The notes under the pieces: model-generated
The model's database searches: none
What the model saw: only the letters and a program-made list of their open reading frames with translations
Told to the model about the DNA's origin: nothing
Position numbers and translations under genes: made by a program
Shown: positions 25,257-64,000 of the stretch, one piece after another
Layout of the letters: each line of letters begins with the position of its first letter
Position numbering within the stretch: the first letter of the stretch is position 1
Source: a virus
Lineage: Duplodnaviria; Caudoviricetes
Strand: one strand, 5' to 3'
Virus record (IMG/VR): IMGVR_UViG_3300032007_001727
Length of the DNA: 64,000 nucleotides

Positions 25257-25291
25257 TGTAAAAATAACTTGATAAATACATAAAAAACGAT

Positions 25292-27229: not shown

Positions 27230-27239
27230 TTAAGTGGAT

Positions 27240-27849: not shown

Positions 27850-29544
27850 TTATTGTTCAACCTTTGTCCAATTATAATAACCTAGGTAATAAGTACCCGT
27901 TCCCATCCAAGTGTTATAGCCGCTGCTACCGCTTTGAATTGTTAGAGTACCACCGGTCTTAATATCATAGAATGTATAATCATATATTGTTGGTGCTGTT
28001 GTGGCAAGTGAAGTTATTGCCGATAAACTAGAACATCTACTGAAAACACCACCACCAATGCTTGTGACACCATTCGGTATTGTTATGCTTGTTAAACTAG
28101 AACAAAATTCGAAAGCACTATTACCAATACTTGTAACACCACTACCAATATAGCAAGTTGTCATGGCAGTACAGTTATAGAAAGCCCGTTCACCAATACT
28201 TGTAACACTGTCCGGAATTGTTATGGTTGATAAACTACGACAACCATAGAAAGCACTACCACCAATACTTGTAACACTGTCCGGAATTGTTATGCTTGTT
28301 AAACTATAACAACAATTGAAAGCACTATTACCAATACTTGTAACAGTATTTGGTATTACAGTTGTATTACAACCTTTTATTAAAGTGTTTGTGCTTGTTT
28401 GAATAATTGCATTACAGTTGTTTCTTGAGTCATAGGTTGCATTTGCAGCATCAACTGTTATACTTGATAGACTAGAACAATAAAGGAAAGCATTAGTAAT
28501 AATGCTTGTAACACCGCTACCAAGCGTACAAGTTGTTAAACCGGAACAACCTAGGAAAGTGTTCTCACCAATACTTGTAACACCATTTGGAATTGTTATG
28601 CTTGTTAAACTAAAACAACTAGTGAAAGCATTACCACCAATGCTTGTAACACCACTTGGAATGTTTATACTTGTTAAACATTGACAATTTTCAAAAGCAG
28701 CATAACCAATACTTGTAACACTGTCCGGAATTGTTATACTTGTTAAACTATAACAATCACCGAAAGCCCCATAACTAATGCTTGTAACACCACTTGGAAT
28801 GTTTATACTTGTTAAACCGGTACAACCATTGAAAGCATAATCACTAATGCTTGTAATACCATTTGGAATAAATGCTGCATCAGAACCCTTTATCAAGGTA
28901 TTTGTGGCAGTTTCAATGACTGCATTACAATTATTTCTTGAATCATATACGGGGTTTGCAGCGTCAACTTCCACGTCTGATAACCCACAGTACTCCATTG
29001 TGAAAACTTGGTTTATATTTGTTACGCCACTTCCGATGTATAAGGTTCTAATTCCGTAACACTCACTAAAAGCACTTCCGCTTATGCTTGCGACACTGTT
29101 TGAGATAACAAGGGTTTGAAGTAAACCACAAGTGTAGTCAATTTTAAACGAATCTTCTTCAGATTCAATACAAGAACCTTCCCAAGCATTATATAAGTCA
29201 CCAATGCTTGTACATAAATCGCCACAAACAATTGATGATATGCAAGTTCCGGTTACTTCTTCCGTTTCTTGGTCTTCCACATAAGATAAATAAGGAAGAA
29301 TCATACATTGTGTCAGTTCTCCGCTTCCTTGTAACTCAACCTCAGTTGGTTCGCCAACCAAGCCATCATTATCATAATCTTGCACGGTTAACTTAACAAA
29401 GAAAGGTGGGGGGGGGGGTGGAACATCCGGATTGTAGTGCATAGCACCATCGGCCACAACATAACTTACGTTTGGCTTCGGATAATCTGTGGCAACGTAT
29501 GCTGTATAATCAGCGGCAGTTGCAAATTCTTTAACATACTTCAT
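27850..29544 (-). CDS. BspA-type (LRR_5/TpLRR) leucine-rich-repeat protein with poly-C11 tract (in frame)
   Basis: Many 23-aa repeats LTSITIPDSVTSIGxxAFxxC; YDSRNNCNA insertions; MKYVKEF N-terminus; PPPPPP encoded over the C11 tract. Confidence 0.85.
   Translation of the reverse strand: MKYVKEFATAADYTAYVATDYPKPNVSYVVADGAMHYNPDVPPPPPPFFVKLTVQDYDNDGLVGEPTEVELQGSGELTQCMILPYLSYVEDQETEEVTGTCISSIVCGDLCTSIGDLYNAWEGSCIESEEDSFKIDYTCGLLQTLVISNSVASISGSAFSECYGIRTLYIGSGVTNINQVFTMEYCGLSDVEVDAANPVYDSRNNCNAVIETATNTLIKGSDAAFIPNGITSISDYAFNGCTGLTSINIPSGVTSISYGAFGDCYSLTSITIPDSVTSIGYAAFENCQCLTSINIPSGVTSIGGNAFTSCFSLTSITIPNGVTSIGENTFLGCSGLTTCTLGSGVTSIITNAFLYCSSLSSITVDAANATYDSRNNCNAIIQTSTNTLIKGCNTTVIPNTVTSIGNSAFNCCYSLTSITIPDSVTSIGGSAFYGCRSLSTITIPDSVTSIGERAFYNCTAMTTCYIGSGVTSIGNSAFEFCSSLTSITIPNGVTSIGGGVFSRCSSLSAITSLATTAPTIYDYTFYDIKTGGTLTIQSGSSGYNTWMGTGTYYLGYYNWTKVEQ
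29408..29418 (-). repeat. Homopolymer G11 (C11 on coding strand)
   Basis: Direct count of the G run; coding frame intact. Confidence 0.85.
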
Positions 29545-29613
29545 AATTATTATTTTTTAAAGTTTTAAATTAAGTTATTTTAACAATAAATATTGAAATA
29601 TATCATAAAATCA

Positions 29614-30409: not shown

Positions 30410-30418
30410 AATGGAATC

Positions 30419-31057
30419 ATGAATGATAGTTTTTTAAACATGAGAATTCCAAGGAACCTCTTATCGTATAATGAAGGTGTCGCAAAGGTAAATCTTAACG
30501 GAAAGTGCAATTTCGTTAATGAGAATGGAGAACTCTTAAGTGAACAGTGGTTTCAATTTTGTGATGATTTCAACGAAGGTTTTGGTGGAGTTCAATTTAA
30601 TGGAAGGTGCAATTTCGTTAACAAGAACGGTGAAATCTTGAGTGACCAATGGTTTGATAATTGTGGTAGTAAATTCAACGAAGGTTTTATATGGGTTGAA
30701 CTTAATTGCAGATGTAATTTCATTAACAAGAATGGTAATATCTTAAGCAAGCGGTGGTTTGACGATTGTTATGGTTTCCATGAAGGCTTTGCAATGGTTA
30801 AACTCAATGGTAAATGGAATTTCATTGATAATAATGGAAATATTTTAAGTGACCAATGGTTTGATAGTTGTTGGGATTTTATCAATGGTCTTGCAAAGGT
30901 TGAACTTAATGATAAGTTTAATTTCATTGGCGAGGATGGTAACATCTTAAGCAAGCGGTGGTTTGACTATTGTTTGGACTTCAAAGAAGGTTTTGGAACG
31001 GTTAAGGTGAATGGTATGTTTTATAAAATTAACAAGAACGGTAAACTTTTAAAATAA
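30419..31057 (+). CDS. WG-repeat (KWG-like) protein
   Basis: Same repeat; tandem paralogue. Confidence 0.85.
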   Translation: MNDSFLNMRIPRNLLSYNEGVAKVNLNGKCNFVNENGELLSEQWFQFCDDFNEGFGGVQFNGRCNFVNKNGEILSDQWFDNCGSKFNEGFIWVELNCRCNFINKNGNILSKRWFDDCYGFHEGFAMVKLNGKWNFIDNNGNILSDQWFDSCWDFINGLAKVELNDKFNFIGEDGNILSKRWFDYCLDFKEGFGTVKVNGMFYKINKNGKLLK

Positions 31058-31064
31058 AAGGGTT

Positions 31065-32009
31065 ATGAACAATGAATTTTTAAATCTTAGTGTACCAAAG
31101 GGTATGTTACCTAGTGACGGGTCACTTACAAAAATTAAGTTTGGCAGCAAAGAGAATTTCGTTAAGTGTAACGGAGAACTCTTAAGCCACGAGTGGTTTG
31201 ACAAGTTCGCTGCTTTCCATGAAGGTTTTGCAATGGTTAAGGCTAGTGGGAAGTATAACTTTATTAATGAGAATGGTGAACTCTTGAGTGAACGGTGGTT
31301 TGACGCTTGTGATAACTTCAAAGAAGGTTTTGCAATAGTTAAATTTAAACGTGAATTCAACTTCATCAATGAGAGGGGTGAACTCTTGAGTGAACAGTGG
31401 TTTGATTGGTGTGATGACTTTAACGAAGGTTTTGGAACAGTTAAACTAAATGGAAAGTATAATTATATTGACAAAAATGGAAATTTCTTGAGTGAGCAAT
31501 GGTTTGATAATTGTGGTGATTTCCATGAAGGCTTTATATGGGTTGAACTAAATGGAAAGTATAACTCTATTGACAAGGACGGAAACATCTTAAGTGAGAC
31601 ATGGTTTGACAATTGTGATGGTTTCCACGAAGGTTTTGCCGTTATTAGGCTTAATGGTAAGTGGAATTTCATTGATAAGAATGGAAATATATTAGCCAAA
31701 GTGTGGTTTGACCGTTGTTGGGACTTCAATCAAGGGTTCGGTAGGGTTGAAGTTGGTGATAGACGTAACTTTATTGACGAGGATGGTAACATCCTAAGTA
31801 ACCAATGGTTTGATTCGTGTGGTTATTTTGAGGAAGGCTTTGCGGTAGTTAAACTTGGCGGAAAATGGAATTATATTGACAAGAATGGTAACATTTTAAG
31901 TGACCAATGGTTTGATTGGTGTGATGACTTCATCAAAGGTTTTTCAAGTGTTAGACTTAATGGGGAATGGAAATCCATCGACAAGGACGGCAATCTCCAT
32001 AATAAATAA
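31065..32009 (+). CDS. WG-repeat (KWG-like) protein
   Basis: Same repeat; tandem paralogue. Confidence 0.85.
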   Translation: MNNEFLNLSVPKGMLPSDGSLTKIKFGSKENFVKCNGELLSHEWFDKFAAFHEGFAMVKASGKYNFINENGELLSERWFDACDNFKEGFAIVKFKREFNFINERGELLSEQWFDWCDDFNEGFGTVKLNGKYNYIDKNGNFLSEQWFDNCGDFHEGFIWVELNGKYNSIDKDGNILSETWFDNCDGFHEGFAVIRLNGKWNFIDKNGNILAKVWFDRCWDFNQGFGRVEVGDRRNFIDEDGNILSNQWFDSCGYFEEGFAVVKLGGKWNYIDKNGNILSDQWFDWCDDFIKGFSSVRLNGEWKSIDKDGNLHNK

Positions 32010-32028: not shown

Positions 32029-32060
32029 AATGAGCAACCGGAAAAAGGTTGCTCATTTTT
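32029..32060. terminator. Terminator hairpin between convergent genes
   Basis: AATGAGCAACC-GGAAAAA-GGTTGCTCATT then a T run. Confidence 0.7.
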
Positions 32061-33432
32061 CATAAACCATTGAACCACAATCAAATATCCTAAAAACTTT
32101 TTTATTTTTGGGTATTTTTCTAAAATCTTCCTTCGAAATTCTTTCGATTTTGTTTCCGTACCTAAAGGTATACGACGGCTGTTCTATTGAAACCAACTTA
32201 AAGCCAATTAACTTAAAAACATTTTCTTTGTTTGACCACCTCATATCAACATGAACGGTAAGTTTTTCGTGACTATAGTTTTTTTCAAGATATGATATTA
32301 GTTTTGAAACCAAACCTTGGAACCTATATTTGAGGCTAGTTGCTAACCTAATAACCTCTAGATTCTTACCATTTCTATTGAAAGATAGAACACCGACCAA
32401 TTCTCCTTTGAAAAATGCCCCAAGAGTAATATTTGCCCTGCCATATCCTTCCAAACAGTTCTCTTCCAAAAACTTAATCGAGTCACCTCCATCAATCTCA
32501 TGGATTGAACATTTTCTAGCCGGTATCTTTTTTCCTTTATCCATCTGAAGAATGTGAAGCAGTTTTTTCTTGACAATTTCCTTCTTCAACAACCACTCAT
32601 CTTCGAAGATATGAATTAGCCTTATTCCATTCTTTTCACAACCAATCGTCTTATTCAAATGGTAATTTGAGTCTTTGGTGAACTCGTCAGAATGCCATTT
32701 AAGACCATCGTACTCGATTCCAATGTTGTATTTTGGCAGAAAAATATCAACCTCTTTCCTACTTCCCTTTATGAGGTTTCTTTTTCTTTCGACCACTTCA
32801 AGACCGTTTTCCTTAAGAAATTCAACAACCTCTTGTTCTTGACTTGAGACGGAAACACCACATTTCGGACATCCATGTCCACGCAGATGACTATCTATCT
32901 CTTGCTTGAACTCTCCATGTACCGGGCATATGATTGAAACTTTCTCCTTTTGATTCTTAATTGGTTGTTCAATGTACTTGTATTTGTCACCGTGAATCTT
33001 ATTCGCTCTTTCAACAAAGTCTTCAAATTTGATGATTTTTCCCTTGTTCCTATTTTCATTTGCGCATTTTGGGCATCCTCTTCCGCTTAAGTGATTCTGT
33101 GGTGTTTGCCAAAATTCTCCGTGCCTTGAACATACAATGCAGACTTTTGTTTCACTATTCACATATTCGACTTTGGAATAATCATACTTGTCACCGTGTA
33201 CGTTTTTAGCCTTATCAACAAATTCATCACTCGTATTTTTGTGCTTTCCGCCACATACCGCGCATCCGTTTCCCCTGCTCGTATGGCAGAACGGTATTTG
33301 CCAAAACTCTCCATGCTTTGGGCATACAATGCAGACCTTGGTACGGTTGTTGACATAGTTTACCTTTGAGTAATCATACTTGTTTCCGTGTACAACCTTA
33401 GCCTTTTGAATGAATAAGTCTCGTTTTGCCAT
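32053..33432 (-). CDS. Hef-like homing endonuclease (CPxHGEF zinc-ribbon repeats + DUF559-like nuclease + GNAT-like C-terminus)
   Basis: Three HGDKYDY...CPKHGEF...GCPKC repeats; EVDIFLP..IGIEYDGLKWHS..IHIFEDEW; C-terminal IFDCG. Confidence 0.75.
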   Translation of the reverse strand: MAKRDLFIQKAKVVHGNKYDYSKVNYVNNRTKVCIVCPKHGEFWQIPFCHTSRGNGCAVCGGKHKNTSDEFVDKAKNVHGDKYDYSKVEYVNSETKVCIVCSRHGEFWQTPQNHLSGRGCPKCANENRNKGKIIKFEDFVERANKIHGDKYKYIEQPIKNQKEKVSIICPVHGEFKQEIDSHLRGHGCPKCGVSVSSQEQEVVEFLKENGLEVVERKRNLIKGSRKEVDIFLPKYNIGIEYDGLKWHSDEFTKDSNYHLNKTIGCEKNGIRLIHIFEDEWLLKKEIVKKKLLHILQMDKGKKIPARKCSIHEIDGGDSIKFLEENCLEGYGRANITLGAFFKGELVGVLSFNRNGKNLEVIRLATSLKYRFQGLVSKLISYLEKNYSHEKLTVHVDMRWSNKENVFKLIGFKLVSIEQPSYTFRYGNKIERISKEDFRKIPKNKKVFRIFDCGSMVYEK

Positions 33433-34220: not shown

Positions 34221-34349
34221 AACAATACTTAAGAATACATTATAAATATAATATTATTATATTATAATTATTATTTTAATAAAAAATAACATTTAATATA
34301 ATATATTAAATAAAAATAGATAATATAGTTAACATTTTTTATTAAAATA

Positions 34350-34383
34350 CTTGTTTTTTTAACATTTTTTATATATATTTGCA
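34350..34383 (+). promoter_or_regulatory. Bacteroidota-type promoter (conserved 34-bp copy)
   Basis: CTTGTTTTTTTAACATTTTTTATATATATTTGCA; near-identical to the copies at 50396 and 63505. Confidence 0.7.
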
Positions 34384-34398
34384 TTAAATAAACAATAT

Positions 34399-34755
34399 AT
34401 GTGCAAATTAAGTTTTAATAAAACTCTTGAAAAAACTATTAATGAATACTGCAAAGTTAACGGTATTGAAGATATAAATGCATTCGCAAACCGCTGCGCT
34501 TTGCATGGACTGAATATTGTCAAGTTCGGAACTTCTCCGGCTGATAATATAGAAAGGGAAAATAACGGAATTAAAGATTTACCAAAGAATGGAAAGAGAA
34601 AAAAGAAAGAAGACATTGTTCCAACAAATGAAGGAGAACAGAATGAAGTCGCAGAACAAGGAAATGACAACAACACCAAAGAAGAAGGAAGTTTACAAGA
34701 GAAAAAAGGAGAATCAGTTAAGGTAAGAAAGATAAAGGTCATAAAGAAGGAATGA
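34399..34755 (+). CDS. Hypothetical protein
   Basis: 118 aa downstream of the promoter; ATGA overlap with the next gene. Confidence 0.6.
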   Translation: MCKLSFNKTLEKTINEYCKVNGIEDINAFANRCALHGLNIVKFGTSPADNIERENNGIKDLPKNGKRKKKEDIVPTNEGEQNEVAEQGNDNNTKEEGSLQEKKGESVKVRKIKVIKKE

Positions 34756-42161: not shown

Positions 42162-42249
42162 ATTTTTTGGCAAAAGTATATAAAAATTTTGATATGCCAA
42201 AAACAAAAATGCACTATTTCAATATTTATAGGAAAATTTAACTTTTATT

Positions 42250-42540
42250 ATGAAAAGAATTATAAGACTTACGGAGAGTGATTTGCACAATATTATTAAT
42301 AATGCTGTCATGCAAATATTAAAGGAAGAGGGTCCTCTTGGTGGTGCTCTTGGTGGTGCAAATTTAATGGTTGGCACTTCTGATGCGAGCGGTGATATTA
42401 AATGCCCTTTTGGTCCCGTAATAACCAAAGGAAACAATTTGGGTAAGAAAACAAGAAAAAAGGTTAAAGGTGTGGATATGGGTCCGGCACTTGAGAGAGG
42501 TGGTTCTATTTCTGTCAACCATGTCGGAAGCGATAAGTAG
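42250..42540 (+). CDS. IRLTESDLH-leader protein
   Basis: MKRIIRLTESDLHNIINNAVMQILKEE; AATATTTATA at 42221. Confidence 0.75.
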   Translation: MKRIIRLTESDLHNIINNAVMQILKEEGPLGGALGGANLMVGTSDASGDIKCPFGPVITKGNNLGKKTRKKVKGVDMGPALERGGSISVNHVGSDK

Positions 42541-42711: not shown

Positions 42712-43320
42712 CATAGAAGTTGACCCACAATAATTTATTAGAAAAAGTATGTATAGAATATGAATAAAAAACTTATAAGATTAACAGAAAGTGACCTTCA
42801 TAGTATCGTTAGAAAAGCGGTAAACAAAATCATTAGAGAATCACGAGGATATGTTCCTCATGATGGAAACGGAATGGTTGGAGGTTCTTGGGGTAGTAGA
42901 ACATTATCTGCCACATATTATTTATACAAATATATAGATGATGCTTTATATTATGCCGGTGCATTTGAAAATGAAGAAGAAGGCAACAAAATTGATGAAT
43001 TTATTAAACGTTGTGATTCAAAAGGCATTTTCAATGTAAAAGTAGATGTTGTAGAATCGTATGACAATTCAGTTGGAATTGATTATGATGCAGAAATAGA
43101 AAATATTGATTATGATGCAATTGATAGGGCTGAAGAGGTACTAAAAAATTTACCAACAAAAAATCTAAAATTCAAGAATGCGGCTTTGAATGGCCTTAAA
43201 ACAGGAGTTGATAGACTTGAATCAGATGAATCAGTTATCGAAGATTTAGATATTGATTATGACGAATACTAGTATTAGTAAAACATTTTGGGTCAACTTC
43301 TATGTTATTGCCTAATAATT
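42696..43320. mobile_element. Non-autonomous IR-bounded gene cassette (IS1595-like ends) with 8-bp target-site duplication
   Basis: TAATAATT (42696-42703) + IR GGCAATAACATAGAAGTTGACCCA (42704-42727) ... TGGGTCAACTTCTATGTTATTGCC (43289-43312) + TAATAATT (43313-43320); no transposase inside. Confidence 0.9.
42760..43272 (+). CDS. IRLTESDLH-leader acidic protein, passenger of the cassette
   Basis: MNKKLIRLTESDLHSIVRKAVNKIIRES; the only ORF between the IRs. Confidence 0.8.
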   Translation: MNKKLIRLTESDLHSIVRKAVNKIIRESRGYVPHDGNGMVGGSWGSRTLSATYYLYKYIDDALYYAGAFENEEEGNKIDEFIKRCDSKGIFNVKVDVVESYDNSVGIDYDAEIENIDYDAIDRAEEVLKNLPTKNLKFKNAALNGLKTGVDRLESDESVIEDLDIDYDEY

Positions 43321-47325: not shown

Positions 47326-49635
47326 TTATGTAGTCTTTGTCCAATTGTATTTACCTAGGTAATAGTTTCCTAGTCCCATCCAAACATCATATCCACTGTT
47401 ACCGCTTGGTACTGTCAGTGTACCGCCGGTCTTAACATTTTGGAACGTGGTGCTTGTTATTGTGGGTGCAACGACTGCCCTTGAGTTAATGCTAGCCAAT
47501 TTTGAGCAATAATTGAATGCACCGGCACCGATGCTTGTAACACTTGAGCCAATTGTAACGGAGGTCAGATTACTATTATAGTAGAAAGCATTGGTTCCGA
47601 TATATGTAACGCTGTCCGGGATTGTAACGCTGCTCAACTTAGAGCATGACGCAAATGCTAAATCATTTATACTTGTAACGGAGTTAGGGATTGTTATTGC
47701 ACTTATTTGTTGGCTAGAATATGAATTTTCCCCTATTATTTGTATCGTGGACGGCAGTACAGTGTTCACAGAGCACCGCATTGTCTTATTCGTACTAGTC
47801 TCAACAATTGCGTTACAGTTATTCCTTGAGTCATATACAGTATTTGCAGCATCAACCGTTATACTTGTAAACCCACTACAATTTCTGAACGAATCCGTTT
47901 CTATTAAAGTTACTGTCCTAGGAATATTTATCGATGTCAATTTGCCGCACAATTCGAATGCCCTCTTTCCAATTGAAACCAAACTATTCGACATGTTTAT
48001 AGTTTGAAGTTTTGAACAATTCGAGAAACTAGTTTCTTCAATATATTTAACCGTATCCGGTATTGTACACGAAGTTAAGTTTGTACATCCGCTGAAGGTT
48101 GATTTTTTAATTGTATCAATTTCCGCATAGACTTTAACATTTGTTAATCCGGAACAGTTGGCGAAAGCACTAGTACCAATTGACTGTACACTGTTTGGTA
48201 TTGTAACTGAAGTTAAACCCGAACAGTTCCAAAAACAATTATTACCTATGGATAGCACACTTGACGGTATTACTACTGATGTTAGTTTACTGCAATATTC
48301 AAATGCTCTGTCACCAATACTCTTTACTGAGTTACCGATTGTCACACTAGTTATATTCCTTGTGGTAGAGAACATACTCCCGGAAATGCCGGACAGACTA
48401 TTTCCAAGCACAACACTAGTAAGTCCGGTACAATTATAGAAGATGCCACTTTCAATTGTTGTAACACTATCCGGTATTATCATGCTCGTTAAAGAAGTGC
48501 AGTTAGTGAAAACAGAACTAGCCATTCTTGTGACGCTATTTGGGATAGTTACACTAGTTAAACTAGAACAACCCATAAAAGCACCGGTATTAATCACGGC
48601 AACTTTATTTCCAATGGTTAGAGACGTTAGGCTAGTACATCCGCTTAAAGCACCTTGACCAATATTAGTAACGTTGTTTGGTATTATTATCTTTGTTAAA
48701 CTAGTACAATTGCTTAAAGCATTCATACCAATGTCGGTTACAGTATTCGGGATTGTTATTCCGGCCAAATTAGAACATTGGCAATATGTATTCGATAGTA
48801 TAGCCGTAACACCACTTGGTATGTTTGTGCTTGAAAGCGACGTACATCCACTGAATGCATTATATCCAATATATTTAACCGTACTAGGTATTGTTGCGCT
48901 TGTAAGACTAGTACATCCGGCAAATACCCCACCACCCAACGATACCGTACCTTCTTTAAACGATATTGATGAGATTGACTTATCAACACACTCGAACGCT
49001 ATATTATTTATATATATGACGTTATTGAACCTATGTGTCGTATCAGCAGAATAAGTTGTCCACCAAGGTACATTGTAAAACGAACCCGGGTTGATGACAG
49101 TAACAGTGTCCGGAATCGTTACGTTGGTTAAACTTGTACAATTTACAAATGCACTTTCGCCTATGGCCTCCAAACCAACCGGAAGCGTCACGCTAGACAA
49201 ACTAGTGCATCCGCTGAAACAGCATGGGTCAAGCGTGTTTATTTTACCCTTGAATTCAATTTCCCTTAATTTCGTACAACCACCGAAAACAGAATACGGT
49301 ATTTTTTCTAGATTACAGTATAGGACAAGTTTTTCTAAGTTTGTATAAGTCTCAAACTGCATACTTAAAAAACTAGTACACAATGTACCAACCTCCATTT
49401 TCACGATTGTACTCTTGTATTGTAGTATCTCCGAACGTATTTTGGTTGTCATATTGCCCATTCCCTCAATTTCAACGATTGAATCGTCTGAAAGAGTCAG
49501 TCTAACGAAGAATGCCGGTGTGTAATGGAAATCCGTCAGTTCATCACACACATAAAGACCAACTTCGTTGTACTCGTCACTGTTCAAGAAGTTTTCATAT
49601 TCTGTCTTGGTTGCAAATCTTTTAATGTATTTCAT
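47326..49635 (-). CDS. BspA-type LRR protein
   Basis: More than 20 TpLRR repeats; MKYIKRFAT N-terminus; shares FFVxLT and C-terminal KTGGTLT..YYLGxYNWTK with 27850. Confidence 0.85.
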   Translation of the reverse strand: MKYIKRFATKTEYENFLNSDEYNEVGLYVCDELTDFHYTPAFFVRLTLSDDSIVEIEGMGNMTTKIRSEILQYKSTIVKMEVGTLCTSFLSMQFETYTNLEKLVLYCNLEKIPYSVFGGCTKLREIEFKGKINTLDPCCFSGCTSLSSVTLPVGLEAIGESAFVNCTSLTNVTIPDTVTVINPGSFYNVPWWTTYSADTTHRFNNVIYINNIAFECVDKSISSISFKEGTVSLGGGVFAGCTSLTSATIPSTVKYIGYNAFSGCTSLSSTNIPSGVTAILSNTYCQCSNLAGITIPNTVTDIGMNALSNCTSLTKIIIPNNVTNIGQGALSGCTSLTSLTIGNKVAVINTGAFMGCSSLTSVTIPNSVTRMASSVFTNCTSLTSMIIPDSVTTIESGIFYNCTGLTSVVLGNSLSGISGSMFSTTRNITSVTIGNSVKSIGDRAFEYCSKLTSVVIPSSVLSIGNNCFWNCSGLTSVTIPNSVQSIGTSAFANCSGLTNVKVYAEIDTIKKSTFSGCTNLTSCTIPDTVKYIEETSFSNCSKLQTINMSNSLVSIGKRAFELCGKLTSINIPRTVTLIETDSFRNCSGFTSITVDAANTVYDSRNNCNAIVETSTNKTMRCSVNTVLPSTIQIIGENSYSSQQISAITIPNSVTSINDLAFASCSKLSSVTIPDSVTYIGTNAFYYNSNLTSVTIGSSVTSIGAGAFNYCSKLASINSRAVVAPTITSTTFQNVKTGGTLTVPSGNSGYDVWMGLGNYYLGKYNWTKTT

Positions 49636-50346: not shown

Positions 50347-50395
50347 AACATTTGGAAATTTTGCAAAACATTCATCCAATAAATATCTCCAAAAT

Positions 50396-50429
50396 CTTGT
50401 TTTTTTAACATTTTTTATATATCTTTGCA
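50396..50429 (+). promoter_or_regulatory. Bacteroidota-type promoter (conserved 34-bp copy)
   Basis: CTTGTTTTTTTAACATTTTTTATATATCTTTGCA. Confidence 0.7.
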
Positions 50430-50460
50430 CAAATAAGATTCTTAAAAAACAAATTAAACT

Positions 50461-51692: not shown

Positions 51693-53105
51693 TTGTATTC
51701 TCTTGTTTATAATATTGACGTTGATATATCTCTGTTATATTGGATTGAACGGTTGATTACAGATAAGAAAGAACTTTTAAATAAAATATTGAAGACCAAC
51801 GAAGAATATATTAAGGACGCGATTGGAATACATGGGAATAAATATTCCTATGAGAAAACTGTTTATCTTGGGAGCAAAAAGAAAGTGTGTATAATTTGCC
51901 CCAAGCATGGGGAGTTTTGGCAAGAAGCAAATTCTCATTTAAAAGGGTGTGGGTGTCCCATGTGTTTTAGGGAAAAACGTAGTGAAGAAAATAAAACTAC
52001 ATTCGATAAATTTATTCGTAAATGCAGAATGATACATGGTGAACTTTATCATTATGATGAGAGTACTTTTACCGATATGCATACTAAAACCAAAATAACT
52101 TGCCCGATTCATGGTGAGTTTTGGCAGACACCCGCTTCACACCTTAATGGTAAAGGTTGTCCAAAATGTTCAAGGGGTAGCAAATACACAACTGAGGATT
52201 GGATAGAGAAATCCAAAACGGTTCACGGTGAAACATACGACTATTCAAAATCAAATTATATTAGTACGAGAGAAAAAATATGTATCATCTGTCCTAAACA
52301 TGGGGAGTTTTGGCAACTACCAAATAAACATTTGGAAGGTCAAGGATGTCCAAATTGCTCAAAAGAAAAAAGAAGATATACTATTGAACAATTCATCGAA
52401 ATGGCAAAAAAAGTCCACGGTGATAAATATGATTATTCGAATTCTGAATATGTGAATAGTAGAACTAAAATTAAAATAATATGTCAAAAACACGGTGAAT
52501 TTTGGATGAAGCCAAATGACCATTTGAATGGTCAAGGGTGTCCAAAGTGTGGTGATGAAAAAATGGCCGATAAAAGTAGGTTAAATATTAATGAAATTTT
52601 AAATAGATTTTCAAAAATTTACAATGATAAATATTCCTATGAACTTTGGAATAATGATTATAAAAACATTGAAGATGTAATACCAATAATTTGTCCCAAA
52701 CACGGGTTATTCCACAAGACCGTCCATCAACATTTGCAGGGCCAAGGGTGTCCGAAATGTAATTCTAGCATATTGGAGAATAATATGCGAAATTTCCTAA
52801 ATGAGAATAGTATTACGTTCTCTGAACAGCAAAAATTTGATTGGTTGGGCAAAATGAGTTTTGATTTTTACCTATCAGATTATAAAATCGCAATTGAATG
52901 TCAAGGTGAACAGCATTTTAAACCCTTTGAGTATTTTGGTGGGGAGTTATCACTTGAAAAACAAATAAAAAGAGATAAGTTAAAAGAAAAACTTGCAACC
53001 GAGAATGACATAGAAATATTGTATTATTCAAATAAAAAATATAACGATAATATCATTACAGATAAGAAAGAAATTTTAAATAAAATATTGAAAAATTATG
53101 AGTAG
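51693..53105 (+). CDS. Zinc-ribbon repeat + DUF559/Vsr-like homing endonuclease
   Basis: Five CPKHG-type repeats; SFDFYLSDYKIAIECQGEQHF; true start uncertain. Confidence 0.75.
   Translation: MYSLVYNIDVDISLLYWIERLITDKKELLNKILKTNEEYIKDAIGIHGNKYSYEKTVYLGSKKKVCIICPKHGEFWQEANSHLKGCGCPMCFREKRSEENKTTFDKFIRKCRMIHGELYHYDESTFTDMHTKTKITCPIHGEFWQTPASHLNGKGCPKCSRGSKYTTEDWIEKSKTVHGETYDYSKSNYISTREKICIICPKHGEFWQLPNKHLEGQGCPNCSKEKRRYTIEQFIEMAKKVHGDKYDYSNSEYVNSRTKIKIICQKHGEFWMKPNDHLNGQGCPKCGDEKMADKSRLNINEILNRFSKIYNDKYSYELWNNDYKNIEDVIPIICPKHGLFHKTVHQHLQGQGCPKCNSSILENNMRNFLNENSITFSEQQKFDWLGKMSFDFYLSDYKIAIECQGEQHFKPFEYFGGELSLEKQIKRDKLKEKLATENDIEILYYSNKKYNDNIITDKKEILNKILKNYE
51756..53092 (+). repeat. 38-bp direct repeats bracketing the endonuclease body (51756-51793 and 53055-53092)
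   Basis: ATTACAGATAAGAAAGAA(C/A)TTTTAAATAAAATATTGAA with 1 mismatch. Confidence 0.8.
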
Positions 53106-54465: not shown

Positions 54466-54872
54466 TACACGTTTATAACTCGCACGACGAAGACTTTACT
54501 AGTAAGGAGAATAACTTCTATTGCGGAAGACACAAGAACCCGAAGACAAAACAAAATGACAATCCTTTGGCAAACCCGTTTACATACAACGGTGTTAAGT
54601 CCAACTTGGCGGCATTGTCATTCAAGACAAGGGACGAGGCGGTTGAAGCATATGAGAAGTATTTTGACAAAATGTACGGCAATGACGAAGACTTGACGGC
54701 TGCGTTTGACGAAATATATGAACACTATAAAAATGGTGAGGACATCTATCTCCAATGTTTCTGCAAACCGAACAAATGCCACTGCGACATCATTGCGGAC
54801 AGATTGCAGCGCAAATTAATAAAAGAGAAAATGCTTGAGAGAAAATTAAGTAAAATAAAGGCAACCAAGTGA
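54462..54872 (+). CDS. DUF4326-like protein
   Basis: YCGR...LANPF...RDEAVEAY...LQCFCKPNKCHCDII. Confidence 0.7.
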   Translation: MIHVYNSHDEDFTSKENNFYCGRHKNPKTKQNDNPLANPFTYNGVKSNLAALSFKTRDEAVEAYEKYFDKMYGNDEDLTAAFDEIYEHYKNGEDIYLQCFCKPNKCHCDIIADRLQRKLIKEKMLERKLSKIKATK

Positions 54873-54887
54873 TTTTGGTTGCCTTTT
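54857..54887. terminator. Bidirectional terminator
   Basis: AAAGGCAACCAA-GTGATT-TTGGTTGCCTTT. Confidence 0.7.
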
Positions 54888-54891
54888 GTTA

Positions 54892-55471
54892 TTATATGTC
54901 ACAATTAAGTGCATTTTGATTAATTGCAGATATTGCCGCCCTGCTTGCGGCATCTAAAGCCCAACATCCACAGAAAGCATAATCACCGATGCTTGTAACA
55001 CCACTGCCAAGTGTGCAAGTTGTCATGGCAGAACAACCATCGAAAGCACCACCACTAATACTTGTAACACTATCCGGAATTGTTATACTTGTTAAACCAG
55101 TACAACTCCAAAAAGTCACATAACCAATGCTTGTAACACCACTACTAATGGTACAACTTGTCATTGCGGGAAAATAATAAAAAGCCCAATCGCCAATACT
55201 TGTGCAAAGTGTACCAACTTCGGCATTGACACAAGTTGCGCTGTATGGATTTGTCATTGCACTTGTCAGTTCTCCACTGCCTTGCAGTTCAACAACTTCA
55301 CCATTGTTAAGTGTTAATTTACAGAAGAAAGGTGGGGGGGGGGGGTAAAACGTCCGGATTATAGTGCATAGCACCATCGGCCACGACGTAACTTACGTTT
55401 GGCTTTGGGTAGTCCGTGGCAGTATAAGCAGTATAGGCTGCATTATCTGCAAATTCTTTAACGTACTTCAT
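54892..55471 (-). pseudogene. BspA-type LRR gene frameshifted in a poly-C12 tract (candidate phase-OFF state)
   Basis: True ATG at 55471 gives MKYVKEFADNAAYTAYTATDYPKPNVSYVVADGAMHYNPDVL, near-identical to the 27850 gene. C12 shifts the frame to a stop (PPPPTFLL*), whereas C11 would give a 192-aa LRR protein. Confidence 0.8.
55334..55345 (-). repeat. Homopolymer G12 (C12 on coding strand)
   Basis: Direct count of the G run; gene span 580 nt = 3n+1. Confidence 0.85.
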
Positions 55472-55616
55472 AATTATTATTTTTAAAGTTTTAAATATAG
55501 TTATTTTCTTTATAAATATTTTTGAAAAAACAAAAAAACAAATTTATCATGATATTTATAGGGAAATAACATATTGATGAGTAGATACTCATCATAAACT
55601 TTAAATATTAAATAAT

Positions 55617-59512: not shown

Positions 59513-61771
59513 ATGGCATATAAATATAAAGTTGCATATTGTGGCGGACTAATGGGCAGCAATGGCTATATTCAACCCAATAAAATGAACATTCCAAATA
59601 TCACTAGCGGAGACTCCGCTACCACAACTACGGAATGGGATGACTTCAATCTATATGGTAAAAATGAAACAGATGCTGATGCATTTGTTTTTGAAATAGA
59701 TGATAGTGATACAAGTGCCAACTATCGTCCGAAATTACATGTATTTAAGTCAAAGTGTTCCCCAACAATGAAATGTTACTATAGTTACCAAAATAATGGT
59801 GGAAGACTTATCTCTGACAAAACACATGTTTGGGCAAAGAAAGTTCAATACGGGAATGATAAGGAAATTTTCGTAATGACCCAATATGATGATTGGAATG
59901 ACCCAAATAACAAATATCGTCTAGCAGATAACTATTATAGTAACGATTCTCCATATAGCGGATTTGCAAGCCCGGTATCTATAGAATATCTGTTCACCAA
60001 TAATGGTACAACCGAACCGCAAAGTCTTGATATACCGGATTCAACAAACGTTGGTATGTTTAGCGGATGTACCGGTATAACAAAATGTGAATTGCCTTGT
60101 CAAATGAGGAACATATCCACGGCCACATTCAGCGGGTGTACCTCCCTTATGAGTTATAGCGAAACACCGGATTTTGTTGATACCATCAATGCTAGTGCAT
60201 TTACAAACTGCTCATCCATGACAAATATAGTTATTGGTAAATATGCTAGTTTGAGTGGTATGAGTATTTTTACGAATTGCAGCAACGCAACATCAATAGA
60301 ATGGAGCGGCTTGAATTCCGGAGACACTAAAGAACGAATGACCGAAATTCCGGCAAATTGCTTTAATGGATGCAGTAATTTATCTACAACAAAATTCAAA
60401 AATGGAGATGTTAACGAAATCTTTATCCCTAATGGAATAACAACCATTGGAGGCAGTGCCTTTACGGATTGCACAGAAATTAAGGATTTAGATTTAAATG
60501 GTGTGACAACCATTGGTGCTAACGCTTTCCTAAATTGCACTAAATTAAGTGGCATTACTAATTTATCTAATGCTGTAACTATTGGTGGTTATGCCTTCAC
60601 AGATTATGGTTGGAACCCTAAGAGCATTAATATTGGGAGTTATAATCTTGTTGATGTTCAGAATATTGGGGAATATGCTTTCAAATTAATAAATATAATA
60701 AATGGTTCGCAAGGTGTTTTTATAAATGCTACATGCGAGGTTGGTAATTATGCGTTTCTTGGTTCCAATATAAACGGTGATGTTGACGTTAAGGGTATTA
60801 TTAATGAAGGCACATTTTCACAATCAAACATCAATGGTGATGTTAATGTTCATCATAACCTTAATGTAAATAGTGCCTTTTATTCCTCAACTATAGACGG
60901 CAATGTTAGTGTTAGTGGTGACGTGAATAATAACAGCAATTATGACTACGCCTTCAATAGGGCATCAATAAGCGGAAATGTTACTATTAGTGGTAATGTT
61001 GGTTATCATGCTTTTGAAGATGCTAAAATAGGTGGTAATATTAATGTTTATAGCAGAGCCTCTTCTTCTGCTTTCACGAGTGCTTCAACAAGTGGTAGCG
61101 TTACAATTGGTGATGATGTTGCAGATTCTGCCTTTGAGAGTTCACGAATAAGTGGGGATGTTATTGTTAATGGTAGTGTTGGCAGTTATGGTTTTACATT
61201 GGCACAAATTAGTGGCAGTGTTACTATTAATGGCGATGTTAGTAACTATGCCTTTTCGTCAGCAAACACAACTACCGGAAGTGTGGTATTTTCCGGTAAT
61301 ACTATTGGTTGGGGTGCCTTTACTTATTGTGACATCAATGGTTTAAACAACACCTCAGATTCCACAACAATGGATTTATCAAATATCTCTAATTACGGAA
61401 TCGGTCAAGATGCATTTCATACCGCAAATATTGGGCAGATTGATAAAATCATTTTTGGAAAAGATAACAGCGAACTTACAATACCAATTGGTTCTAGGGC
61501 ATTTTATAATTTTAATCGCAATATCACAAGTTTAACGTTAGAAATTAATGGCAAAACCAAATTACAAGTAGAAGACGACACATTTTCCGGCACTTCAAAA
61601 ACAATAACTGTTAAGTTTAATCAATACACGGATGGTCAACCAATAGAGGATTGGATGAGATATTATTTTGGAGTTGGAGATAATAGTAAATGGTGTAATG
61701 TTAGGGCTTTTAATGTAGTTACGTTCGTTGATAAGAATGGTACTCAAATACAAAATGTACCATCATGTTAG
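59513..61771 (+). CDS. LRR (BspA-type) plus beta-helix repeat protein, putative receptor-binding adhesin
   Basis: TIGxxAFxxC repeats followed by ~20-aa ISGxVTIxGDVxxxAF repeats. Confidence 0.7.
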   Translation: MAYKYKVAYCGGLMGSNGYIQPNKMNIPNITSGDSATTTTEWDDFNLYGKNETDADAFVFEIDDSDTSANYRPKLHVFKSKCSPTMKCYYSYQNNGGRLISDKTHVWAKKVQYGNDKEIFVMTQYDDWNDPNNKYRLADNYYSNDSPYSGFASPVSIEYLFTNNGTTEPQSLDIPDSTNVGMFSGCTGITKCELPCQMRNISTATFSGCTSLMSYSETPDFVDTINASAFTNCSSMTNIVIGKYASLSGMSIFTNCSNATSIEWSGLNSGDTKERMTEIPANCFNGCSNLSTTKFKNGDVNEIFIPNGITTIGGSAFTDCTEIKDLDLNGVTTIGANAFLNCTKLSGITNLSNAVTIGGYAFTDYGWNPKSINIGSYNLVDVQNIGEYAFKLINIINGSQGVFINATCEVGNYAFLGSNINGDVDVKGIINEGTFSQSNINGDVNVHHNLNVNSAFYSSTIDGNVSVSGDVNNNSNYDYAFNRASISGNVTISGNVGYHAFEDAKIGGNINVYSRASSSAFTSASTSGSVTIGDDVADSAFESSRISGDVIVNGSVGSYGFTLAQISGSVTINGDVSNYAFSSANTTTGSVVFSGNTIGWGAFTYCDINGLNNTSDSTTMDLSNISNYGIGQDAFHTANIGQIDKIIFGKDNSELTIPIGSRAFYNFNRNITSLTLEINGKTKLQVEDDTFSGTSKTITVKFNQYTDGQPIEDWMRYYFGVGDNSKWCNVRAFNVVTFVDKNGTQIQNVPSC

Positions 61772-61809: not shown

Positions 61810-63438
61810 ATGGCAGGATGGAATTTAAATAACGGCAATGCAGATGTTCACCAAAACAGTGGTGCATTAACATATCTGTTAGGGAGGGGTGGTTATGTCG
61901 GTTATCTCTGTAGTGGTGCGCCAACCTCAGAATGCGGTAATCCGTCACAACAAACCGTTACTCTTGAATTGGGTGAAGATAGTAGTAATTTTCACCCGTT
62001 TCATACAATGTGTGGTGAGATAACCCAAACATTCGTCTGTGAACCTTGCAATAGGGACGCTCTAACGATGTGGTTTAATGACGGTACTAGTAATGGTAAC
62101 CAAAGATATGATAATATATTATATTATAATAATTGGAACGATGCCAAAACATACATTGATTCAAAAAATGTCGATGAATGTAGAATAATTGTCTTGGATA
62201 ATTCTGACACGCATGATGGAATACATGTTGGCGGTCAGAGATTTGATACTAGTGCATATACTGACAGTACCTATCCGTTTATTGCCAAATTAAACGATAA
62301 GGGCGAGCCAATTAGCAGCGGTACCGTATCCGGTAAAACGGTATATTACCCGGAAAATAAATACAAGTCACAGAAATATAATGGACACAAGATAAAATAT
62401 CACGTTAAAGGAAACACCATACCGAATAATTTCTTCAGTGGAAACAGCACCAATCAGTTCAATAAGGATTTGGTTGAAGTTTATTTCCAAGGAAGCATTA
62501 AGGAGATTGAAGACGGTGATATCAATAATGGTGCCTTCAGTAAATGTTATGGTCTAAGTGCATTAACCCTAAACAATGTTGAGAAGATTGGCACTAGCGC
62601 ATTTAACGGATGTACTGCCTTAACATATGTCGATTTCGGTCATTGGTGCAGCAGTGGAAGGACTAGCACCAACTTAAGAGAAATCGGTGCATACGCATTT
62701 AAGAATTGTCAAAGTCTAAAGGGTATCACAATATTACCCGGATTAAAGACAATTGACATTGCCGCCTTTGATTCATGTGATGGTTTGAAAGATGTGGTGC
62801 TGCCGAATACCGTTAGGAAATTAGGCAATAGTGCTTTCCGTGGTTGTACAAGTTTATCAAGTATAACAATTTCTAGTGGTATAACTGAAGTTGGCAACAC
62901 TGTTTTTGAAGATACCCCGTGGTATCAAGGGATTAGCGGAAGTTCAATCAGCGGACATATCGTATATGTTGAGGATATTGCTTATATTTGTGAAAATGAA
63001 TCAATAACTTCAGCCACGTTTGCAAATAATACGAAATGTATAGCCGGTACTGCTTTTATGGGCTGTAGCAATTTGACAAATATTGTTATCCCCAATAGCG
63101 TTGTGAGCGTTGGTAATAGTGCTTTTAGAGACTGTACCGGAATTACAAGTTGCACTATCGGAAACAGTGTTAAGACTATTGGAAATTATAGTTTTGGTGA
63201 TTGTTCTAGTTTAACATCCATAACAATACCAAGCAGTGTTGAAACAATTGGTAGTGGTGCTTTTAGTAGTTGTTCCAACCTAACAAGAATAACCTCACTT
63301 TCCATGACCGCACCGACAATAGAAAATAATACTTTCGCCAACGTAGGGTCTAATGGTACCCTTTACGTTCCAAGTGGCAGTAGTGGCTATGATGTTTGGA
63401 TTGCCCAATTAAATAATTGGACAATTATTGAACAGTAA
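61810..63438 (+). CDS. BspA-type LRR protein
   Basis: TpLRR repeats; C-terminal TAPTI..GTLYVPSGSSGYDVW shared with 27850 and 47326. Confidence 0.8.
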   Translation: MAGWNLNNGNADVHQNSGALTYLLGRGGYVGYLCSGAPTSECGNPSQQTVTLELGEDSSNFHPFHTMCGEITQTFVCEPCNRDALTMWFNDGTSNGNQRYDNILYYNNWNDAKTYIDSKNVDECRIIVLDNSDTHDGIHVGGQRFDTSAYTDSTYPFIAKLNDKGEPISSGTVSGKTVYYPENKYKSQKYNGHKIKYHVKGNTIPNNFFSGNSTNQFNKDLVEVYFQGSIKEIEDGDINNGAFSKCYGLSALTLNNVEKIGTSAFNGCTALTYVDFGHWCSSGRTSTNLREIGAYAFKNCQSLKGITILPGLKTIDIAAFDSCDGLKDVVLPNTVRKLGNSAFRGCTSLSSITISSGITEVGNTVFEDTPWYQGISGSSISGHIVYVEDIAYICENESITSATFANNTKCIAGTAFMGCSNLTNIVIPNSVVSVGNSAFRDCTGITSCTIGNSVKTIGNYSFGDCSSLTSITIPSSVETIGSGAFSSCSNLTRITSLSMTAPTIENNTFANVGSNGTLYVPSGSSGYDVWIAQLNNWTIIEQ

Positions 63439-63465: not shown

Positions 63466-63498
63466 AATGCAGTCAGCGATGGCTGCATTTTTCTTTTT
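63466..63498 (+). terminator. Rho-independent terminator
   Basis: AATGCAGTCA-GCGA-TGGCTGCATT then a T run. Confidence 0.7.
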
Positions 63499-63504
63499 AT
63501 AAAA

Positions 63505-63538
63505 CTTGTTTTTTTAACTTTTTTTATATATCTTTGCA
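63505..63538 (+). promoter_or_regulatory. Bacteroidota-type promoter (conserved 34-bp copy)
   Basis: CTTGTTTTTTTAACTTTTTTTATATATCTTTGCA. Confidence 0.7.
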
Positions 63539-63553
63539 AAAAAGCATAAATAT

Positions 63554-64000
63554 ATGTTAAATATTGATGATATAAGAAAAAGAATCAAAAATAACCCGGA
63601 GCCACAAGAGGTCAAGGAAATAAGAGAAAATATTATCTCTAGTTTCTCTGACTTGGAGTTCATAGAAGACGGGCATAAGTACTATCTCCATAAGAATGGC
63701 AAGACAAAGGAAATGGAAAGCGTTTCCTCTGTATGTCATATGTTTGAACCGTATGTCGATTGGGAGGAGATATTGGAGAGAAAGAGCCTTAAATTGGGTA
63801 TTGACAAAGAAGTCCTTAGGAGAGAATGGCACGAAAACAATATCTGTTCCACGTCCAACGGAAGCCTAACACATTTATTCGCGGAAGCATATATGTATTT
63901 CTTTATGGGGGACGTTGAGTCAATGCCAAGCATAATAAAGGATATGCAATACGAGGACGGGTTCCTCATACCATATGGCGAGAAACAGAAGGCCATAGCC
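63554..64000 (+). CDS. Probable PD-(D/E)XK phage exonuclease, N-terminal part (runs off the window; not in ORF track)
   Basis: MLNIDDIRK...LEFIEDGHKYY...ESVSSVCH...EW...NGSLTHLFAE. Confidence 0.6.
   Translation, partial: MLNIDDIRKRIKNNPEPQEVKEIRENIISSFSDLEFIEDGHKYYLHKNGKTKEMESVSSVCHMFEPYVDWEEILERKSLKLGIDKEVLRREWHENNICSTSNGSLTHLFAEAYMYFFMGDVESMPSIIKDMQYEDGFLIPYGEKQKAIA

What the first reader, a model, noticed from the sequence alone, without database searches (positions are those of the whole stretch)
54892..55471. Poly-C switch: LRR paralogue OFF at C12 while its sister gene is ON at C11
Seen: genes starting at 29544 and 55471 share their upstream ~50 bp and first ~50 codons, including a poly-C tract that encodes a polyproline linker. 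C11 (29408-29418) is in frame. C12 (55334-55345) truncates the protein at about 50 aa, just before the LRR domain. Such a long G/C run is exceptional in this AT-rich DNA. Known: homopolymer slipped-strand mispairing drives phase variation of surface proteins. Inference: the phage reversibly switches LRR (putative host-binding) modules on and off.
Basis: partly seen in the sequence, partly recalled or inferred. Interest (0 to 1): 0.8.

Follow-up and report, generated by a model that had tools for sequence, protein, structure and literature searches.

The report
Poly-C on/off switches in phage LRR genes
Two related leucine-rich-repeat genes of a roughly 367-kb phage each carry a slippage-prone run of C's at the joint between a shared head piece and the binding domain. 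One run is in frame (C11) and one is out of frame (C12), so each gene is probably switched on or off at random, but no read-level proof exists yet.

Summary
Gene A (27850-29544, minus strand) is intact with C11. Gene B (start 55471) has C12 and stops after 50 codons. One C fewer gives a 192-aa BspA-type LRR protein.

The two tracts are the only G/C runs longer than 6 in 64 kb. They use CCC, the rarest proline codon here. They sit at the same codon, inside a 161-nt cassette that is 83% identical between the genes.

About 55 related genes from rumen metagenomes and viral contigs code this linker as CCA/CCT. None has a C run, and all are in frame, so the tract is specific to this lineage.

Gene B still looks functional downstream of the break: 146 open codons (chance about 3e-7), all 39 family-invariant residues, and a terminator hairpin.

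Protein databases hold at least two more out-of-frame stubs on what is probably the same 366,743-bp contig, and others on independent assemblies.

Best reading (about 0.55): a slipped-strand contingency switch, as in Campylobacter Fletchervirus polyG genes and T2/T4 contingency loci.

Not shown: length variation at one locus, reversibility, or host binding. Neither an ON form of B nor an OFF form of A exists in the databases. Assembly error, recent gene death and +1 recoding remain open.

This scan had already reported the same family from other windows of this genome.

The parts
27850..29544 (-). Gene A: intact 564-aa family member. It has the N-terminal module, a Pro6 linker, BspA-type LRRs and a C-terminal cap ending WTKVEQ.
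   Evidence: ORF. PF13306 E=9.5e-87.
29408..29418 (-). Poly-C tract of gene A: C11, in frame. It covers part of the Pro run at codons 42-47, coded CCA CCC CCC CCC CCA CCT.
   Evidence: Length modelling.
29554..29594 (-). Upstream block of gene A shared with gene B. It includes the 17-nt box at 29554-29570, which ends 9 nt before the ATG.
   Evidence: family D15, 85% identity.
55319..55471 (-). Gene B frame 0: N-terminal module plus tract, ending in a stop after 50 codons. This is the OFF stub.
   Evidence: The same 50-aa peptide is on record in the protein collection.
55334..55345 (-). Poly-C tract of gene B: C12, one base out of frame.
54892..55333 (-). Gene B LRR body in the +1 frame: 146 open codons from the tract to the stop.
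   Evidence: Read-through translation. PF13306 E=9.9e-21. Chance of staying open about 3e-7. All family-invariant residues kept.
55480..55520 (-). Upstream block of gene B shared with gene A. The 17-nt box lies at 55480-55496.
54857..54886 (-). Terminator-like hairpin (12-13 pairs) followed by a T-rich tail. It starts 6 nt after the stop codon of the gene B LRR frame.
47326..49635 (-). Gene C: a third, more distant family member of 769 aa in the window. It has the N-terminal module and C-terminal cap, but a single proline (CCG) at the linker and no tract.

Best explanation
Genes A and B belong to a dispersed family in a roughly 367-kb phage. Each gene is a self-contained cassette. It has a conserved upstream block, a folded N-terminal module of about 41 residues, a polyproline linker, a BspA-type LRR binding domain and, in most members, a conserved C-terminal cap.

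In this phage lineage the linker prolines have become a run of CCC codons, giving C11 or C12. During DNA replication such a run gains or loses single bases by slipped-strand mispairing.

Lengths 8, 11 and 14 give the full protein. Any other length ends translation 4-7 codons later, because the conserved F-C-K-L codons contain TAA in both other frames.

Each copy would therefore flip between ON and OFF independently, so a burst of progeny carries different sets of LRR modules. This would be a bet-hedging device.

Shown here: the anatomy, the rarity of the tract, that it is derived, the frames, and the intact body of the OFF copy.

Inferred: the high slippage rate, reversibility, that the N-module docks the protein on the virion, and that the LRR domain binds host surface.
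For: Tract rarity:
- Only two G/C runs of 8 or more occur in 64 kb, against 0.45 expected. The next longest is 6.
- CCC makes up 44 of 521 proline codons. Only four other Pro-Pro pairs occur in 18,296 codons, and none uses CCC.

Position and frames:
- The tract sits at the same codon in both genes, inside a shared 161-nt cassette.
- Both wrong frames stop within 4-7 codons.

The OFF copy is not decayed:
- 146 open codons, chance about 3e-7.
- LRR_5 E=1e-20.
- All 39 residues invariant among nine family members are present.
- Its C-terminal tail resembles that of an intact relative.
- The upstream box and terminator are intact.
- In the N-module, 13 codon differences between A and B are synonymous and 5 are not.

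The tract is derived:
- About 55 family genes in IMG/VR and JGI metagenome contigs have no C run of 6 or more at the linker, use CCA/CCT, and are all in frame there.
- Gene C in this window also lacks it.

More OFF stubs exist:
- Peptides of 46 and 49 aa with the same N-module end in the two different wrong frames. Both are recorded on a 366,743-bp contig.
- Others lie on independent ENA contigs of 366,366, 1,596, 619 and 608 bp. One tail equals gene A modelled at C9.

The assembly is not generally poor at homopolymers: 15 A/T runs of 7-9 lie inside intact long ORFs.

Precedents:
- Fletchervirus polyG tracts of 7-11 in receptor-binding genes, as summarised in bioRxiv 10.1101/2025.10.21.683753 and PMC10579305.
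- Contingency loci in T2 and T4.
Against: - No read-level data were available.
- No case was found where the same locus has two lengths in two assemblies. The stubs on other contigs belong to similar but non-identical genes.
- The ON form of gene B and an OFF form of gene A are absent from a collection of 5.8 billion protein clusters.
- Two probably orthologous stubs, on the 366,743-bp and the 366,366-bp contigs, end in the same wrong frame. That would also fit a fixed break.
- C11-C12 is longer than any A/T run in the window, so the A/T check cannot fully exclude an assembly miscount.
- The virion role of these proteins is untested.
Confidence: 0.55

Rival explanations
1. Assembly or sequencing miscount. 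The true tract in gene B is C11 (or C8/C14), the gene is simply intact, and the apparent OFF state is a homopolymer error in a metagenome assembly.
For: Runs of 11-12 G/C are error-prone on all platforms. The body of gene B is perfectly intact, which is what an artefact would look like. There is no independent assembly of this exact locus.
Against: Fifteen A/T runs of 7-9 sit inside unbroken long ORFs, and 86% of the window lies in ORFs of 150 aa or more, so there is no general homopolymer problem. Out-of-frame stubs recur in both wrong frames, on what is probably the same contig and on several independent ENA contigs. If the population is mixed, an assembler reports the majority length, which is itself compatible with the switch.
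Confidence: 0.2
2. Fixed recent pseudogene. The tract arose by neutral expansion of proline codons, a +1 insertion killed gene B, and the copy is on its way to decay with no adaptive switching.
For: At least three of the four copies whose frame at the run can be read here are OFF. The family is highly redundant, so loss of copies is cheap. Likely orthologous stubs on two diverged large contigs share the same wrong frame.
Against: There is no second lesion in 146 codons, and all invariant residues, the upstream box and the terminator are kept. Using the rarest proline codon three or four times in a row, in several paralogues but in none of about 55 relatives, is hard to get by drift.
Confidence: 0.12
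3. Recoding rather than DNA switching. The C12 allele is expressed through +1 ribosomal slippage of tRNA-Pro on CCC-C, or through RNA-polymerase slippage on the run. The gene would then make a 50-aa head piece and some full-length protein in a set ratio.
For: Gene B needs exactly a +1 shift, and the read-through used here was CCCA read as one codon. CCC-C/U is the classic +1 slippery site for tRNA-Pro, and polyproline stretches are frameshift-prone unless EF-P acts (PMC7577736).
Against: Stubs in the other wrong frame (tails beginning with His) cannot be rescued by +1. The same slippage would damage the in-frame C11 gene A. No stop or evident pause codon follows the run; frame 0 continues ACC TTT CTT CTG before TAA. 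Background +1 slippage is normally low.
Confidence: 0.1

Closest known systems
Hypermutable polyG tracts in receptor-binding-protein genes of Campylobacter Fletchervirus phages (Sorensen et al. 2021, Cell Rep 35:109214; not held here, summarised in PMC10579305 and bioRxiv 10.1101/2025.10.21.683753)
   Same: Both have a G/C homopolymer of similar length inside phage genes thought to bind the host (7-11 there, 11-12 here). Both have several tract-bearing genes per genome and frame-dependent ON/OFF states.
   Different: The phage and gene family are unrelated; the first 100 residues of gene A find nothing by tblastn in 50,697 GenBank phage records. Here the tract is a polyproline linker at a fixed domain joint of a paralogous LRR family with a shared 5' cassette. 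Nothing has been shown experimentally here.
Contingency loci of coliphages T2 and T4 (Gomez, Barrick and Waters, bioRxiv 10.1101/2025.10.21.683753)
   Same: Both involve reversible frameshifts by polymerase slippage at short homopolymers in phage genes, read as bet-hedging.
   Different: Those tracts are mostly runs of 6 or more in single-copy genes of many functions (agt, rIIA). Here the runs are far longer, are G/C in an AT-rich genome, and are confined to one gene family at one position.
Bacterial contingency gene families, e.g. Neisseria opa genes (about a dozen copies, each with its own repeat tract early in the coding region). Recalled from general knowledge, not tested here.
   Same: Both have many paralogues of a surface-binding protein, each with an independent repeat tract just after a shared N-terminal part. 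This gives combinatorial expression.
   Different: Opa uses a pentamer repeat in a signal-peptide region of a bacterial outer-membrane protein. Here a mononucleotide run follows a folded, non-secretory N-module in a phage.
BspA-type leucine-rich-repeat proteins (Pfam PF13306; e.g. T. pallidum TpLRR 6mlx and Bacteroides cell-surface LRR proteins 4fs7, 4fd0)
   Same: The sequence and the predicted fold of the repeat domain match.
   Different: The phage proteins have no signal peptide. They carry a phage-specific N-module and C-cap, and, in this lineage, the poly-C linker.

Membership tests
Slipped-strand contingency (phase-variable) locus | A simple-sequence tract long enough to be hypermutable, placed in the reading frame or promoter | tested here: met
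   C11 and C12 lie inside the coding frame at codons 43-46. No other G/C run exceeds 6.
Slipped-strand contingency (phase-variable) locus | A change of tract length shifts the frame to an early stop while the rest of the gene stays intact | tested here: met
   Stops come 4-7 codons after the tract at all lengths other than 8, 11 and 14. The gene B body is open for 146 codons and keeps all invariant residues.
Slipped-strand contingency (phase-variable) locus | Tract length differs between copies, strains or assemblies | tested here: inconclusive
   Paralogues differ (C11 against C12). Stubs in both wrong frames exist on this and other contigs.
Slipped-strand contingency (phase-variable) locus | Length heterogeneity within one population, at rates far above point mutation, and reversible | not testable with these tools
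   Needs reads or plaque-lineage sequencing.
Slipped-strand contingency (phase-variable) locus | The ON/OFF state changes a phenotype | not testable with these tools
   Needs an isolated phage and its host.
BspA-type LRR protein (PF13306) | Profile match above Pfam's gathering score, and an LRR solenoid fold | tested here: met
   Gene A scores 287.8 bits and read-through gene B 74.4 bits, against a cut-off of 27.7. The model of paralogue P0006 has pLDDT 95.8 and matches 6mlx, 4fs7 and 4fd0.
Fletchervirus phase-variable receptor-binding proteins | Sequence homology to those proteins | tested here: not met
   tblastn of gene A residues 1-100 against the GenBank phage collection gave no match. 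megablast of the locus also gave none. The resemblance is in mechanism only.
Programmed +1 ribosomal frameshift site | A slippery P-site codon plus a stimulator (slow or stop codon in the A site, or an upstream rRNA-binding element) | tested here: inconclusive
   The slippery CCC-C is present four times in a row (PMC7577736). No stop follows directly, and no stimulator was recognised by eye. Efficiency cannot be computed.
Phage receptor-binding or tail accessory protein | Virion location and host binding | not testable with these tools
   There are only hints. The N-terminus lacks a signal-peptide-like stretch. The N-module is fused to unrelated C-terminal domains in other proteins. Gene B lies next to a tail-fibre-like gene with an S74 chaperone domain.

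The most novel reading that the evidence does not exclude
A giant phage carries an Opa-like repertoire. Its scattered LRR genes share a 5' cassette made of an upstream block, a docking module and a poly-C run, and the cassette is kept alike by gene conversion. Each gene flips independently, so every burst releases virions decorated with different combinations of binding modules. This would be combinatorial host-range bet-hedging on a scale not described for any virus.
Probability: 0.4. Interest if true: 0.8.

Novelty: new variant of a known kind. Interest (0 to 1): 0.6.

Why it matters
Homopolymer switches in phage genes have been shown by experiment only in Campylobacter phages and, recently, in T-even coliphages.

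If this case is real, it extends the principle in three ways. It would apply to an uncultured giant phage, probably from the rumen. It would apply to a new class of binding protein. And it would apply to a whole gene family with one switch per copy, which would give a virus a combinatorial surface repertoire.

It also matters for annotation. Gene callers split these genes into a 50-aa stub and a headless LRR ORF, so such repertoires are easily missed or filed as pseudogenes.

Tried and rejected
Searches that found nothing useful:
- **Close DNA relatives.** megablast of the locus against GenBank phages gave no match. An exact 18-mer in IMG/VR gave none. A poly-C plus flank pattern in IMG/VR gave none.
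- **JGI metagenomes.** Peptide patterns from the 50-aa stub matched 590 stretches, but none was a relative.
- **GTDB genomes.** A 17-mer gave 32 hits, all chance.
- **N-terminal 100 aa.** tblastn against GenBank phages gave none.

So no second DNA copy of either locus could be examined.

Ideas checked and dropped:
- The first alignment was too diverse for a metagenome scan and was replaced by a tighter one.
- A G8 run in locus L054 proved unrelated to the family.
- The window has no tRNA genes, so there is no phage tRNA-Pro to argue from.
- Fold searches explained only the LRR part, not the N-module.
- Ka/Ks of the gene B body was not attempted, because the nearest DNA relatives are only about 50-60% identical in protein.
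- The sigma-70 promoter scan gave nothing above shuffles near either gene.

Full report
**1. What is in the sequence**

On the minus strand, gene A (27850-29544) is a single 564-aa ORF. Gene B starts at 55471 with the same first seven residues and ends after 50 codons at 55319.

Both genes carry a run of C's at coding bases 127 onward: C11 at 29408-29418 and C12 at 55334-55345. Reading one four-base step at the end of the gene B run gives a continuous 192-aa protein that ends at 54892.

Both products are BspA-type LRR proteins (PF13306). Gene A scores E=9.5e-87, and read-through gene B scores E=9.9e-21.

**2. Is it more than chance?**

- The two tracts are the only G/C runs of 8 or more in 64 kb (0.45 expected, none of 100 shuffles reached the count). 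The next longest G/C run is 6, whereas A/T runs reach 9.
- CCC is the rarest proline codon here, at 44 of 521. In 18,296 codons of 37 long ORFs there are only four other Pro-Pro pairs. None uses CCC, and there is no other Pro-Pro-Pro.
- The tracts lie at the same codon inside a shared cassette. One 161-nt block runs from the tract back through the N-terminal module into the upstream region, at 83% identity, and a further 41-nt upstream block is 85% identical.
- A 17-nt box ending 9 nt before the ATG is exact in both genes and occurs nowhere else in the window.
- Segment identities are 50/60 for the 60 nt upstream, 106/126 for the N-module, and only 186/300 further into the body.

**3. The family**

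A search of 5.8 billion protein clusters shows a large family with one plan:
- an N-module of about 40 residues;
- one to three prolines;
- a conserved F-F-C-K-L-T-L strand;
- BspA repeats;
- usually a cap ending WTKVEQ.

Many members sit on contigs of 300-410 kb, which suggests giant phages.

The window's own proteins are recorded on a 366,743-bp contig. That contig also holds two intact paralogues with Pro3 linkers, P0003 and P0006.

The N-module alone also occurs in front of unrelated C-terminal domains. It therefore behaves as an independent module.

An AlphaFold model of P0006 is confident throughout (pLDDT 95.8, and 88-90 in the N-module). Its repeat part matches solved BspA-type LRR structures and many phage LRR proteins. 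The N-module found no informative match.

The window holds a third, more distant member, gene C (47326-49635), with the N-module and cap but a single CCG proline and no tract. Two further LRR_5 genes with other N-termini lie at 59513-61771 and 61810-63438.

**4. The tract is derived**

I fetched about 55 family genes from IMG/VR and from JGI metagenome contigs. I then read the DNA just before the conserved F-F-C-K-L codons.
- None has a C run of 6 or more there.
- The prolines are CCA, CCT or CCG.
- Every gene is in frame across the linker.
- The one G8 found in these 165 kb is unrelated to the family.

So an ordinary Pro2-3 linker was converted into a CCC homopolymer only in the lineage of this phage. 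The conversion happened in several paralogues, not just one.

**5. Is gene B dead?**

Downstream of the break the frame stays open for 146 codons. With the off-frame stop density of this window (0.098 per codon), the chance of that is about 3e-7.

Gene B keeps all 39 residues that are invariant in a nine-member alignment, and 38 of them lie after the break. Its unusual C-terminal tail resembles that of the intact relative P0008. The upstream box is intact, and a 12-13-pair hairpin with a T-rich tail follows the stop.

Between A and B the N-module differs at 13 synonymous and 5 non-synonymous codons.

Nothing but the one extra C is wrong with gene B.

**6. Other copies and other assemblies**

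A near-length search with the 50-aa stub, plus cluster look-ups, found more stubs with the same N-module.

| Stub | Length | Contig on record | Tail |
|---|---|---|---|
| P0157 | 49 aa | 366,743 bp | begins Pro-Pro-Pro-His |
| P0159 | 46 aa | 366,743 bp | Pro-Pro-Thr-Phe-Leu-Leu |
| P0158 | 48 aa | 366,366 bp (ENA) | not analysed in detail |
| P0156 | 50 aa | three ENA contigs, up to 1,596 bp | not analysed in detail |
| P0122 | 49 aa | 619 bp (ENA) | see below |
| P0160 | 48 aa | 608 bp | not analysed in detail |

- P0157 and P0159 are in the two different wrong frames. They are recorded on a contig of the same length as the window's own proteins, which I take to be the same contig.
- The first 45 residues of P0156 equal gene B.
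- The tail of P0122 equals gene A modelled at C9.

So at least four copies carry the run on what is probably this genome, one ON and three OFF. Out-of-frame copies also recur in independent assemblies.

The limits of this evidence should be stated plainly:
- It is protein-level only.
- The stubs on other contigs are similar but not identical genes.
- I found no locus represented at two lengths.
- The full-length ON form of gene B and any OFF form of gene A are absent from the collection.
- P0157 and P0158 look orthologous and share the same wrong frame. That fits a fixed break as well as chance.

**7. Mechanism proposed**

Lengths 8, 11 and 14 give full-length protein. Every other length stops 4-7 codons after the tract, because the conserved codons for F-C-K-L contain TAA in both alternative frames.

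The simplest reading is slipped-strand mispairing during phage DNA replication. It would change each run by single bases, and so flip each copy between ON and OFF independently.

What the switch would control is inferred:
- The proteins lack a signal-peptide-like N-terminus.
- They carry a portable N-module.
- Gene B sits back-to-back with a 907-aa tail-fibre-like gene with an S74 chaperone domain.
- A baseplate wedge gene opens the window.

Interchangeable binding modules docked on the virion are therefore plausible, but unproven.

**8. Rivals**

- **Assembly error (0.2).** Runs this long are error-prone, and an intact body is what an artefact would leave. Against this, 15 A/T runs of 7-9 lie inside unbroken long ORFs and 86% of the window is in long ORFs. 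Stubs in both wrong frames also recur in several assemblies.
- **Recent fixed pseudogene (0.12).** Most of the copies that can be scored are OFF, and the family is redundant. Against this, there is no second lesion, and the repeated use of the rarest proline codon is hard to reach by drift.
- **Recoding (0.1).** Gene B needs exactly +1, and CCC-C is the classic +1 slippery site for tRNA-Pro, especially in polyproline (PMC7577736). Against this, the stubs in the His frame cannot be rescued that way, the same slippage would damage gene A, and no stimulator is visible. Some leak through this route may well exist on top of DNA switching.

**9. Comparison with what is known**

The closest experimental precedents are two.
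- PolyG tracts of 7-11 in receptor-binding genes of Campylobacter Fletchervirus phages (Sorensen et al. 2021). That paper is not held here. I rely on its summary in PMC10579305 and in bioRxiv 10.1101/2025.10.21.683753.
- The contingency loci of T2 and T4 described in that preprint. The same preprint also mentions unstudied polyG tracts in Bordetella phage BPP-1 and in PB1-like phages.

The present case is not homologous to any of these. It differs in three ways:
- It is a paralogous family with one switch per copy.
- The switch sits at a fixed domain joint.
- The switch doubles as a polyproline linker.

In layout it resembles bacterial contingency gene families such as Neisseria opa. That comparison is from general knowledge and was not tested.

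**10. Earlier notes of this scan**

Look-ups show that other windows of the same genome were already reported with the same reading. Those notes describe a dozen LRR genes with C8-C13, about half out of frame, in a rumen phage of about 366 kb.

I treated these as leads. My own data confirm:
- the contig size;
- at least four tract-bearing copies;
- the tract-free paralogue;
- the T-even precedent, which I checked in the preprint.

I could not confirm the total count or the rumen origin by name.

**11. Verdict**

It is a new variant of a known kind. Interest is 0.6.

Noticed in passing
window 47326-49635 (-): A third family member of 769 aa has the N-module and C-cap but a single CCG proline at the linker and no C run. 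It is a natural 'always ON' control within the same genome.
   Followed up: partly
window 34335-34402, 50381-50448, 63490-63557: A conserved 68-nt intergenic block occurs three times. It contains TTG...TATATCTTTGCA, which resembles the Bacteroidota promoter -7 element (TAnnTTTG, recalled from general knowledge). This may be a phage promoter and a hint at a Bacteroidota host.
   Followed up: no
window 25289-25370, 27237-27318, 42247-42328, 42760-42841: Four otherwise different genes begin with the same stretch of about 27 residues (M-K-R-R-I-R-L-T-E..D-L-H-R-I-V-K-E-S-V-N-R). The same start is seen in a 272-aa protein of locus L054. This is a second family with a shared N-terminal module.
   Followed up: no
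window 29675-32009 (+): Three consecutive genes are built from 102-nt WG-repeat units (PF14903), about 15 copies in all, directly upstream of gene A on the other strand.
   Followed up: no
window 32053-33432 (-) and 51693-53105 (+): Two HNH/homing-endonuclease genes (phrog_559) lie among the structural and LRR genes. Short repeats are shared between them and other sites (35172, 39768, 52203, 52395).
   Followed up: no
loci L003/L014 and L048: In relatives, the LRR module starting at the F-F-x-K-L strand is fused to quite different upstream parts. In L003/L014 it follows a long unrelated N-terminal domain. In L048 it follows directly on the WTKVE cap of a preceding LRR unit. The linker is therefore also a recombination joint.
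   Followed up: no
proteins P0003, P0006, P0157, P0159 compared with genes A and B: The N-modules are mosaics. Two types of first half and two types of second half occur in all combinations among paralogues, which suggests gene conversion or recombination within the 5' cassette.
   Followed up: partly
window 2549-23746 (+): A row of very large ORFs (2351, 1074, 1055, 1007 and 1252 aa) follows the baseplate-wedge gene. None has a PHROG match.
   Followed up: partly
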